Source: the human T2T-CHM13v2.0 reference genome, Homo sapiens. From it: a stretch of DNA of 64,000 nt. The notes under the pieces are model-generated. The model was given only the letters and a program-made list of their open reading frames with translations. It did no database searches and was not told the DNA's origin. The translations under genes and the position numbers were made by a program. Numbering within the stretch: position 1 is the first letter of the stretch; the number at the start of each line of letters is the position of its first letter. The stretch lies in NCBI RefSeq assembly GCF_009914755.1, contig NC_060947.1, one strand, 5' to 3'. Positions 51,321-55,100 of this stretch are shown here, piece by piece.

Positions 51321-51552
51321 CACTGGTCACAAACGCTTGTGGATCCCCTACTACGCCCCAGGAACTGCAGGAGCGCTCAGGAGAGAAGGAAAAGGAAAGA
51401 GAATGCCTGCCTTTGAGGAGCTAGCTCACAGTCTGGTGGGAGGTCCACCCGTCTGTTGGAACCAGTAAGGTTCCCTAGAACAATACTTCTGCAGCAAAGA
51501 GTTGCGGGGGTGCAGTGAGGGGAGGAAGGCAATTAAGGCTTCCAAGAGTGAC

Positions 51553-52173
51553 TTTTTTTTTTTTTTTTTTTTTGAGACGGAGTTTCGTTCGCCCTTTTTG
51601 CCCAGGCTGGAGTGCAATGGCGCGATCTGGGCTCACTGCAACCTCCGCCTCCCGGGTTCAAGCGATTGTCCCTGCCTCAGCCCCCGGAGTAGCTGGGATT
51701 ACAGGCGGATGCCAAAAAGCTCGGCTAATTTTGCATTTTTAACAGAAACGGGGTTACATCACGTTGGCCAGGCTGGTCTCGAACTCCCGACCTCAGCTGA
51801 TCCTCCTGCCTTGCCTCCCAAAATGCTGGGATTACAGGCTTGAGCCACTGCACCCCGCCCAAATACTCTAAAAAGTCACTCTTCGGGTGACTCACGCCTG
51901 TAATCCCAGCACTTTGGGAGGCCAAGGCAGGCGGATCACCTGAGGTCGGGAGTTCGAGACCAGCCTGGCCAACGTGGTGTAACCCTGTCTCTACTAAAAA
52001 TGCAAAATTAGCCAGGTGTGGTGGCACCTGCCTGTAATCCCACCTACTCCGAAGGCTGAGGCAGAGAGAATCGCTTGAACCTGGGAGGCAGAGGTTGCAG
52101 TGAGCCGAGATCAGGCCACTGCACTCCAGCCTGGGTGACAGAGGAGACTTTGTCTCAAAAAAAAAAAAAAAAA
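51553..52173. mobile_element. Head-to-head inverted Alu pair separated by ~24 bp
   Basis: Minus-strand Alu 51553-51860 and plus-strand Alu ~51885-52173. Confidence 0.92.
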
Positions 52174-55100
52174 AGAGTATTGGAGGATGATTGGTGCTGG
52201 GAACGGATACAGGAGGTTTTTCGGGTGAAGGCAAGAAGCCAACCACTGAAGGAAGCTAACATGGACAACAGAAGGGTCTGAAGTGAGATGGAAGGTTTTA
52301 GGAAAGTGGTGGAAATTTCGCATAACCAGTGTGAGATGCTAGAGCGACAAGTTAGACAAGAGTCACTGAAGACCTAGTGGAGTTTAGAAACCATCATCGT
52401 GTAGTGGTGTCCAGCTATAATCTGCTATAATCTGGCAAGGTATCTACAGAAATATAGCTCTTAGTTATGAAACCCAAGTTTCCTGCTTGCATAGAATAGA
52501 AGGACAAGAGGGTGAGGAGGTGGAGGGCACAGAAAGACTGCGATTGCAGTGATGGGCCAGAGCTCTAGTCCTAGAGGACAGGAACTGTTAATAAAACCAG
52601 CGGGGAGCTGATGGACTGGGAGACAGATGAGAGAAGGGCTCCAAGGCCAGGGCCTCTGAGGAGAGGACTGGCAAACTGGCAGCAGAGAGTGTGGTGCTGG
52701 AGTTCAGGCCTTCAAATGGATATTCCAGGAAATGAGACAGTTTGGGGTGTGGCAGCTACAATGGAATAGAAAAGTGAGATGGGCATCACTGGCCTTGGGT
52801 TTAGTGCCCACAAGGCTGGTATGTTGGACATCGAGGGTCCCAAAAGGATGGCAGGAGGTGGAGGAGTCAATCGAGGTCAAGGAACTTTAGAGAATTGGGG
52901 TTGCGGGGTGGGTAGTGAGCCTGAAACTAATAGATGACTGTGACAAGGAAAGGGAGAAGGTTGCAGAACAAATGTCAGTGCCTTTCAAGACACAATGGAG
53001 GCCTGGCGCCATGGCACACCCCTGTAATCCCAGCACTTTGAGAGGCTGAGGCAGGCAGATAGTTTGAGTCCAGGAGTTGGTGACTTACCTGGACAACATG
53101 GCAAAATCCTGTCTCTACAAAAAATACAAAAATTATCACGTGTGCTGGCATGCATCCCAGGGGAGGCTGAAGCAGGAAGGTCGCCTGAGCCCAGGAGGTC
53201 AAGGCTGCAATGAGCTATGACCGTGCCACTGCACTCCAGCCTGGACGACAGACTGAGACCTTGTCTCAGAAAAAAATCAATTAATTAATTTAAAAAAATA
53301 AACACGACCAGGCATGGTGGCTCACCCCTGTAATCCCAGCACTTTGGGAGGCCGAGGTGGGTGGATCACGAGATCAGGAGATCGAGACCATCCTGGTTAA
53401 CACGGTGAAACCCCGTCTCTGCTAAAAATACAAAAAATTAGCCGGGCATGGTGGCATGCGCCTGTAGTCCCAGCTACTCAGGAGGCTGAAGCAGGAGAAT
53501 CTCTTGAACCCGGGAGGTGGAGGTTGCAGTGAGCCCAGATCGCGCCATTGCACTCCAGCCTGGGCGACAAGAGCGAAACTCCATCTCAAAAAATAAAATA
53601 AAATAAACACAATGGAGTTTCTCCCCACCAAGGATGAAAGAACAGTGTTGTGGAGGAAGCAGTAAGGAACTTGGAACAATGATGTCAATTTCTGGGAAAA
53701 TAAGCAGACGCTTCACTCAGCAGGGTAGCCTTGGGGGAGATCCAGGTCTCCATGGGTGTTGGGGGGTCCAGGGGAGGGACAAGGAACCACCTTGTCAAAA
53801 GGCTAGAGGCATAAACAAGTCTTCCAGAGGGCTCAGGGGAAAGAATGTTTGTGAAATGGGTTGGTATGGGTGCTAATACTTAATACCTGCCGCATATGTA
53901 AGGTTTCCTTCCACAGTTCCGTCTTTCATTATCTTTTTAGAACCAGGACAGTTGTTATGATCCCCTTTTTAGAATGAGGGACCTGAGGTTCAGAGATGTG
54001 AAATGTCTTGACCAAGGGTACGTTAGTTAATATGAGTGGCAAAGCCAGGACATCAATGCACAGCCAGACTCCACCACAGGATGTGAGGCCTGATCCAATT
54101 GTCCTATTCTATTCATCCATGAGGCTAATGGATAAAAGATAATCTGTATATACAAAGGGCTCATTATAATAACTATTGTATTATTAATCTCAAATGGGAA
54201 AAATAATGAGCTGGAAAACAAATTTGATAACAGGGTGTGGATTGACTGAATTGTGTGGGATAAGGATGTATCCTCATTCAACAAGTGTCAGTTCATGGCC
54301 CACCACCAGCATAACATTTTGCTGAATCCGCACAAGATGATTTTTTTTTTTTTTTTTTTTTGAGATGGGGTTTCATTCTTGTCGCCCAGGCTGGAGTGCA
54401 ATGGCATGATCTCAGCTCACTGCAACCTCCACCTCCCGGGTTCAAGTGATTCTCCTGCCTCAGCCTCCTGAGTAGCTGGGATTACAGGCGCCCACCACCA
54501 CGCCCGACTAATTTTTGTATTTTTAGTAGAGACAGGGTTTTACCATGTTGGCCAGGCTGGTCTCGAACTCCTGACCTCAGGTGATCCACCTGCCTCGGCC
54601 TCTCAAAGTTCTGGGATTACAGGCATGAGCCACCGTGCCTGGCCAGATGATTTTTTTTAAAATGAAAATGAAGCCCATCATTAAGTTGATTGCTTATGTT
54701 CTTGTTTTGTAATCTTTTTTTTTTTTTCTTTTTTTCAGTCGGGGTCTCGCTCTATCACCCAGGCTGGAGTGCAGTGGCACGATCACAGCTCACTGCAGCC
54801 TCCAGCTCCCAGGCTCAAGCAATCCCCCTGCCTCAGCCTCCTGAGTAGCTGAGACGACAGGTGCAAGCCACTACACCCAGCTCATTTTTTATTTTTTGTA
54901 TAGACAGGGTCTCGTTATGTTGCCCAGGCTGGTCTCAAACTTCTAGACTCAAGCAATCCTCCCACCTCGGCCTCACAAAGTGCTGGGATTACAGGCATGA
55001 GCCACTGTGCCCAGCCTAATCTCTTATTTTTAAGAATTCTACCTTTCAGAAGAGTTGTAAAACTGTCTATCCCTTGGTGACCACAGTGTTCACCACGATT

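What the first reader, a model, noticed from the sequence alone, without database searches (positions are those of the whole stretch)
51544..52183. Alu-Alu micro-inversion next to the CTPS2 promoter, revealed by swapped target-site duplications
Seen: the minus Alu has AAGAGTGACTTTTT at its tail (51544-51557) and the plus Alu has AGAGTATT after its tail (52174-52181). The spacer between their heads reads AAATACTCT-AAAAAGTCACTCTT (51861-51883), which holds the reverse complement of each TSD next to the wrong Alu. Flipping the spacer restores both TSDs. The two arms also share non-consensus variants (CAACGTG, GTAACCC, AAATGCAAAATTAGC, CTACTCC). Inference: the central segment was inverted by recombination or hairpin repair between the inverted Alus, with homogenisation of the arms. 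Such closely spaced inverted Alus are known to be depleted and unstable. The inversion may be recurrent or polymorphic, ~0.5 kb from the CTPS2 start.
Basis: partly seen in the sequence, partly recalled or inferred. Interest (0 to 1): 0.72.

Follow-up and report, generated by a model that had tools for sequence, protein, structure and literature searches.

The report
Ancient flip between two head-to-head Alus

Summary
Observation confirmed. The 24-bp spacer (51860-51883) holds the inner copies of both target-site duplications (TSDs) reversed against their outer copies (14/14 and 8/8); reversing the centre restores both. The arms share three variants whose joint motif occurs only in these two arms genome-wide (2 matches against 4,401 for the usual motif), yet their tails are of different subfamily types. 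So two independent insertions were followed by a flip and one-way copying from the left Alu, best explained by one two-jump template switch. Arm divergence dates the copying to about 24 Myr (14-40). Among 90 other head-to-head pairs, 55 are unflipped, 31 unclear and 4 called flipped (3 convincing), with more similar arms. The locus is a miniature Alu recombination-mediated inversion, one of perhaps 100-250 such fossils; I found no paper on that subset. No function is indicated.

The parts
51544..51557 (+). Outer copy of TSD 1 (14 bp), behind the tail of the left Alu; its T-run merges with the poly(T)
51553..51859 (-). Left (minus) Alu arm: Sq/Sp-type tail and body of the donor Alu; its full-length head is inferred to come from the other Alu
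   Evidence: origin of the head inferred from the adjoining TSD 2 copy
51860..51869 (-). Inner copy of TSD 2, reversed, next to the wrong Alu (8/8 exact at 51862-51869)
51870..51883 (-). Inner copy of TSD 1, reversed, next to the wrong Alu (14/14); abuts the TSD 2 copy with no gap
51884..52174 (+). Right (plus) Alu arm, chimeric: head shortened by about 7-9 nt and inner body inferred to be donor sequence; tail of Sx/Sz/Sg/Y type
52174..52182 (+). Outer copy of TSD 2 (8-9 bp) behind the tail of the right Alu
51948..52065 (+). Minimal copied tract in the right arm: shared changes at 51948, 51974, 51980, 52002, 52003 (deletion), 52028, 52050, 52065 (insertion)
51671..51788 (-). Minimal donor tract in the left arm, partner of 51948-52065
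52066..52118 (+). Interval that holds the inferred outer switch point, between the last shared change and the first subfamily-type difference at 52119/51617
   Evidence: inferred
51789..51850 (-). Interval that holds the inferred inner switch point, between the differing heads and the first shared non-CpG change
   Evidence: inferred

Best explanation
The 24-bp spacer between two head-to-head Alus is reversed against both outer target-site copies and the inner arms share private changes, likely because a replicating strand jumped once from the right Alu to the left Alu and back, which would flip the centre and overwrite part of the right Alu in one event. Steps: (1) inferred: two different AluS-type elements inserted one after the other on opposite strands at the same T-run/purine junction, leaving a spacer made of the two TSDs, as in unflipped pairs; (2) inferred: the left element gathered private changes for some millions of years; (3) inferred: a nascent strand leaving the right Alu's tail switched at Alu position about 190-243 to the left Alu, copied it through its head, the spacer and the right Alu's head, and switched back before position about 72; (4) shown: swapped TSDs, a shared tract, different tails; (5) estimated: the copies have diverged for about 24 Myr, so the state is likely shared with apes and fixed. 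It is likely a neutral fossil.
For: Swapped TSDs, restored by reversal. The unflipped arrangement is the default: 55 of 59 callable control pairs out of 90 scored. Joint motif of three shared variants: 2 genome-wide matches, the two arms, against 4,401 for the majority motif. Unflipped pairs share no more rare variants than random Alus (none in 41 of 55 against 3,072 of 3,984); this pair shares 4, reached by 11 of 3,984 random pairs. Tails differ at four subfamily-linked sites, and the shared tract carries two markers that go with the left tail type (14/29 against 1/149; RepBase alignment in PMC5402677), so copying ran left to right. Two template jumps are published as giving spacer inversion with arm homogenisation (PMC8604942; PMC8755829). 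One age for the tract fits (P=0.18).
Against: Sequence alone cannot tell a replication template switch from a crossover with a long conversion tract; PMC5829575 treats inversion plus conversion as typical of homologous recombination. The date applies to the copying; the flip has that age only if both were one event. No ape, monkey or second human sequence could be examined. Divergence between the arms is uneven (1/52 at positions 49-100, 11/49 at 101-150) and lopsided (17 against 7 non-CpG changes from the majority). The three convincing flipped controls share only 1 rare variant each. TSD 2 is short (8-9 bp) and has one extra base in its inner copy.
Confidence: 0.57

Rival explanations
1. One recombinational repair event: a break in or near the inverted pair (for example at a hairpin or cruciform) was repaired from the other arm or the sister chromatid, with a crossover and a conversion tract of 120-230 bp.
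For: Same sequence outcome. Inversion with conversion is described between inverted L1s (PMC5829575). Alu-Alu inversions at about 82% identity are known. The single strand folds into one long hairpin, as expected for any inverted Alu pair.
Against: The inner exchange lies within about 70 nt of the heads, so an intramolecular crossover there needs a loop near or below the persistence length that PMC8755829 cites against recombination for microinversions. A long uninterrupted one-way tract through 15-20% mismatch is simpler as copying (inference).
Confidence: 0.23
2. Two separate events: old gene conversion made the arms more alike, and the spacer flipped later, perhaps recently or more than once, so that both orientations could exist in people.
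For: A 37-nt identical run remains. Flipped controls have more similar arms than unflipped ones, which could be cause rather than effect. Polymorphic Alu inversions need only about 82% identity.
Against: Conversion without a flip is rare in the controls, so two rare events at one locus are less likely than one. No younger tract is detectable (P=0.18). The locus is not among the 49 human-chimpanzee cases of PMC2603318, although that scan's smallest candidate was 27 bp.
Confidence: 0.12
3. The swap arose during insertion: the cDNA of the second Alu recombined with the resident neighbour, or two simultaneous insertions were joined crosswise.
For: Synchronous L1 insertions give reciprocal inversions with split TSDs (bioRxiv 2024.08.27.596794), and insertion intermediates recombine through homology (PMC13526784). 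The right Alu's own sequence is too short to date, so it could be as young as the copying.
Against: The two TSD copies abut with no gap, so two simultaneous nicks would leave no double-stranded centre to invert (inference). The donor had gathered private changes before it was copied, so the two insertions were not simultaneous. Those papers concern somatic L1, not germline Alu.
Confidence: 0.06
4. Only one Alu inserted; the left arm and the reversed spacer are a fold-back duplicate primed by a T-run on its poly(A), and the 14-bp word is not a TSD.
For: This would also give a reversed spacer and shared private variants (inference from the layout).
Against: The tails differ at four subfamily-linked sites that travel together in other Alus (27 of 29 against 4 of 149 for the inserted base), and the heads differ in length. 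A duplicate would have the same tail.
Confidence: 0.02

Closest known systems
Alu recombination-mediated inversion (Alu-RMI, PMC2603318)
   Same: Two opposite Alus span the breakpoints, become chimeric and lose matching TSDs; the TSD mismatch is that paper's test for the derived state.
   Different: The unique inverted piece is only the two TSD copies (24 bp), below the paper's smallest candidate (27 bp) and its mean Alu-RMI sizes (769 and 1,934 bp). It comes with one-way copying of 120-230 bp, and it likely predates the human-chimpanzee split. It is not in Table S1.
Template-switch spacer inversion with arm homogenisation (PMC8604942; model in PMC8755829)
   Same: Two jumps between inverted arms invert the spacer and make the arms alike.
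   Different: Those cases have arms of about 3-50 bp in unique sequence, and PMC8755829 dropped RepeatMasker-masked segments. Here the arms are 280-bp Alus of different subfamily type, and the TSDs give the ancestral state without an outgroup.
Head-to-head Alu pairs with 24-36 bp spacers (PMC3215922)
   Same: Orientation, spacer length at the lower edge of the peak, and a spacer made of the two TSDs.
   Different: Most such pairs are unflipped (55 of 59 callable). The passages and supplement part that I read do not discuss flipped spacers and leave the peak's cause open.
Polymorphic Alu-mediated inversions (PMC9675761)
   Same: Inverted Alus of 80-90% identity at both junctions.
   Different: Those are about 1-1.6 kb and segregate today; this one is 24 bp of unique sequence, with no evidence of polymorphism.

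Membership tests
Alu recombination-mediated inversion (Alu-RMI) | Two Alus in opposite orientation span the two breakpoints | tested here: met
   switch intervals inferred inside both arms
Alu recombination-mediated inversion (Alu-RMI) | TSDs no longer match around each element, and match again when the centre is reversed | tested here: met
Alu recombination-mediated inversion (Alu-RMI) | Elements are chimeric, front of one and back of the other | tested here: met
   right arm has left-type body markers and a different tail type; for the left arm only the head and adjoining TSD show it
Alu recombination-mediated inversion (Alu-RMI) | An orthologous genome shows the pre-inversion state | not testable with these tools
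   no other primate or human genome is held (no relatives)
Template-switch inversion between inverted repeats | Spacer reversed exactly, with one arm copied onto the other in a continuous tract | tested here: met
Template-switch inversion between inverted repeats | Flip and copying arose in the same replication event, not by crossover | not testable with these tools
   one search is compatible with one age but does not show one event
Two independent TPRT Alu insertions | Each element has a poly(A) tail, its own 7-20 bp TSD and an endonuclease-type site | tested here: met
   14-bp and 8-9 bp TSDs that start at a pyrimidine/purine junction on each strand; size range
AluSp (donor element) | All AluSp diagnostic positions | tested here: not met
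   has the Sp G near position 73 and an Sp/Sq tail but lacks the Sp-type A near 93, A near 103 and G near 225; called only 'Sq/Sp-type'
Recurrent or polymorphic inversion | Both orientations among human haplotypes, or toggling among primates | not testable with these tools
   one genome only; absent from Table S1 of PMC2603318; no CTPS2 hit in five searchable supplements of PMC9675761, whose 15 inversion coordinates I did not read through

The most novel reading that the evidence does not exclude
Head-to-head Alu pairs whose spacer is just their two TSDs are a built-in recorder of template switching: about 3-7% of them (roughly 100-250 human loci) have flipped their spacer while copying one arm's inner half onto the other. 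Each can be read, oriented and dated from one genome, they are missed by microinversion scans that mask repeats and by size-limited variant callers, and some may still segregate in people. The same anatomy, two TSDs meeting at one junction cut on either strand, would explain the 24-36 bp head-to-head peak that PMC3215922 left open.
Probability: 0.4. Interest if true: 0.5.

Novelty: new variant of a known kind. Interest (0 to 1): 0.32.

Why it matters
The single locus matters little: 24 bp turned round about 0.5 kb upstream of CTPS2, outside the annotated silencers, with no sign of function. Its value is as a clean worked example. The TSDs give the ancestral orientation, the subfamily markers give the direction of copying, and the arm divergence gives a date, all without an outgroup. 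If the few per cent of flipped pairs seen here hold genome-wide, they would give a germline rate, tract-length distribution and strand bias for template switching between diverged Alus over 30-40 Myr, which is hard to measure otherwise.

Tried and rejected
Shared variants as a subfamily signature: true for 2 of 7 shared substitutions or deletions, rejected for the rest. Fold-back duplication of one Alu: rejected on the tails. A second, recent conversion tract: not needed (P=0.18). 'Depleted class': contradicted for head-to-head pairs at 24-36 bp. General homogenisation of close head-to-head pairs: not seen in 55 unflipped pairs. Control L052 was called flipped but is A/T-only, so I do not count it as convincing. 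The hairpin energy (-284 kcal/mol, z -33.6) is expected for any inverted Alu pair and says nothing on cruciform formation in cells. A paper on this locus: none among the 3 hits (listing only). A paper on flipped TSD spacers in head-to-head Alu pairs: none seen in the listings. Two likely relevant older papers (neighbouring-Alu homogenisation, PMC2950799; an early survey of inverted Alu spacing, DOI recalled) are not held and may already describe parts of this. The 36-40 bp spacer class (155 matches) was listed but not scored, apart from those already held.

Full report
OBSERVATION. The window holds a minus-strand Alu (tail at 51553, head at 51859) and a plus-strand Alu (51884-52174) head to head, 24 bp apart. 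The spacer contains the exact reverse complement of the 14 bp behind the left tail and of the 8 bp behind the right tail; unreversed it matches the flanks over only 4 and 6 nt. Each word occurs once per strand in the window. Reversing the centre in a script gives each Alu its own direct-repeat TSD. The two inner copies abut with no gap, so both insertions used the same junction on opposite strands (inference). The spacer is 473-495 bp upstream of the outermost annotated CTPS2 start and outside the RefSeq silencers listed in the finding.

IS THE FLIPPED STATE DERIVED? No other primate genome is held, so I used other head-to-head pairs of the same genome. I fetched 130 loci: 30 found by similarity to this locus, the first 50 of 1,045 matches to a head-spacer-head pattern and the first 50 of 77 matches with 24-25 bp spacers. 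Forty were dropped (29 with an arm not full length, 9 with no pair found, 2 duplicates). Of the 90 scored, 55 have the spacer in insertion orientation, 31 are unclear and 4 are called flipped (a first pass on 66 controls gave 38, 26 and 2). L079 matches on both sides (9 and 11 nt), L096 over 15 and 6 nt, L130 on one side only (15 of 16), and L052 is A/T-only and doubtful. The unflipped state is thus the product of insertion, and the window's state is derived. In 11 of the 27 unflipped pairs scored on both sides the two TSD copies meet within 2 nt; 14 leave gaps of 3-12 nt, partly because matches stop at mutations, and 2 overlap by 5.

ARE THE ARMS HOMOGENISED? Against 51 other full-length Alus of the window, and then 231 Alus in all, the arms share seven non-majority substitutions or deletions outside ordinary CpG decay, plus a 1-bp insertion. 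Two are subfamily-linked: each is carried by 14 of 29 Alus with one tail type and 1 of 149 with the other. The other five are carried by 18, 3, 4, 7 and 8 of 231 Alus with no such link. A motif joining three of them matches twice in 3.1 Gb, in the two arms; a looser motif matched only the right arm; the majority version matches 4,401 places. Unflipped pairs share no more rare variants than random Alus, whereas this pair's count of 4 is reached by 11 of 3,984 random pairs. Homogenisation is therefore real and local.

TWO INSERTIONS, ONE DIRECTION. The left tail has four features of Sq/Sp-type tails and the right tail has none (RepBase alignment in supplement 2 of PMC5402677). A fold-back duplicate of one Alu would have the same tail, so there were two insertions. 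The shared tract carries markers of the left tail type, so the left Alu was the donor; it lacks three other AluSp diagnostics, so I call it only Sq/Sp-type. The shortened head now on the right sits next to TSD 1 and so belonged to the left Alu; the full head now on the left sits next to TSD 2. Reading the layout: the right arm is donor sequence from its head to a point in 52066-52118, and the left arm is the other Alu's head up to a point in 51789-51850, then donor. This is what one nascent strand makes if it jumps from the right Alu to the left, copies through the centre and jumps back (inference; mechanism as in PMC8604942, passages, and PMC8755829, passages and first part of the Discussion). 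A crossover with a long conversion tract gives the same sequence (PMC5829575, passages), so the mechanism is at 0.57, while flip plus copying is close to certain.

AGE. The arms differ at 26 of 229 positions over Alu positions 12-242, 14 of 191 outside CpG sites: about 24 Myr (95% 14-40) at 0.15% per Myr; the narrower tract 49-192 gives 33 (17-55) (rate from PMC5402677, passages). The longest identical run, 37 nt, fits a tract of one age (P=0.18). This argues for an old, probably fixed state. Against my reading: the date is that of the copying only; divergence is uneven along the arms and heavier on the left arm; and polymorphic Alu inversions have a median identity of 81.7% (PMC9675761, passages), so 88% identity does not forbid a recent flip. 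The locus is not in Table S1 of PMC2603318 (whole table; its chrX rows lie at 44 Mb or beyond), but that scan's smallest candidate was 27 bp. I put present-day polymorphism at under 10%.

A SMALL CLASS. The three convincing flipped controls have arm identities of 0.868-0.906 against 0.820 (sd 0.037, maximum 0.888) in 55 unflipped pairs (P=0.0025; with L052 P=0.0006), mainly in the inner half (0.92-0.96 against 0.85; outer part P=0.07). Orientation was called from TSDs alone, so this is an independent check. Against it: they share only one rare variant each; part of the excess reflects lower divergence overall (residual z -1.3 to -3.3, while one unflipped pair reaches -3.1 and four unclear pairs fall below -2); the sample is not random and favours intact heads. 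Two to four flipped among 57-59 callable pairs is 3.5-6.8% (3 of 58: 95% 1-14%), or 120-235 of the 3,464 pairs counted by PMC3215922.

KNOWN OR NEW. Chimeric Alus with unmatched TSDs are the published signature of Alu recombination-mediated inversion (PMC2603318: passages, first part of Results, Table S1). PMC3215922 (passages and part 2 of 4 of its supplement) reports strong depletion of inverted pairs up to 24 bp but an excess of head-to-head pairs at 24-36 bp with no settled cause; this pair sits at that boundary and has the anatomy of the peak, so 'depleted' is misleading. Homogenisation of neighbouring Alus is cited as known in PMC3670932 (passages); the primary paper is not held. Insertion-time rearrangements with split TSDs are described for somatic L1 (passages of PMC11702581, PMC13526784 and bioRxiv 2024.08.27.596794; the last one's supplements were not seen) and are kept as a minor rival. 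Searches (listings) showed no paper on this locus or on flipped TSD spacers in head-to-head pairs; subscription papers and inversion call sets in closed supplements may cover them.

VERDICT. A real, old, miniature Alu-Alu inversion with one-way copying, likely a template switch: a variant of a known kind with no evidence of function at CTPS2. Interest 0.32, most of it from the possible genome-wide class.

Noticed in passing
L079 (G000:C1:62342460-62343440), spacer at about 477-515: Second clear flipped pair: 39-bp spacer, TSD copies of 9 and 11 nt swapped, with 17 bp of unique sequence between them.
   Followed up: partly
L096 (G000:C6:30512400-30513380) and L130 (G000:C15:88383780-88384760): Flipped 25-bp spacers (15/15 and 15/16 matches to the wrong flank) with arm identity about 0.90.
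   Followed up: partly
L006 (G000:C2:228285830-228286860): Head-to-head pair with the highest arm identity in the set (0.913) and a partly palindromic spacer whose orientation cannot be called; may be copied without a flip, or flipped twice.
   Followed up: no
window 51715-51721: Cluster of four changes in seven bases in the left arm only, three of them G to T in Alu sense; looks like one multi-base mutation after the copying.
   Followed up: no
window 51588-51597: The left Alu's tail has a 5-nt insertion that looks like a short local duplication.
   Followed up: no
window 51553-51859 against 51884-52174: The arm nearer the CTPS2 promoter carries 17 non-CpG differences from the majority Alu against 7 in the other arm; unexplained, small numbers.
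   Followed up: no
L001-L130: In most unflipped pairs the spacer is a T-run followed by an A-run with one TSD on each side, which suggests that the 24-36 bp head-to-head peak is simply two TSDs around one junction cut on either strand.
   Followed up: partly
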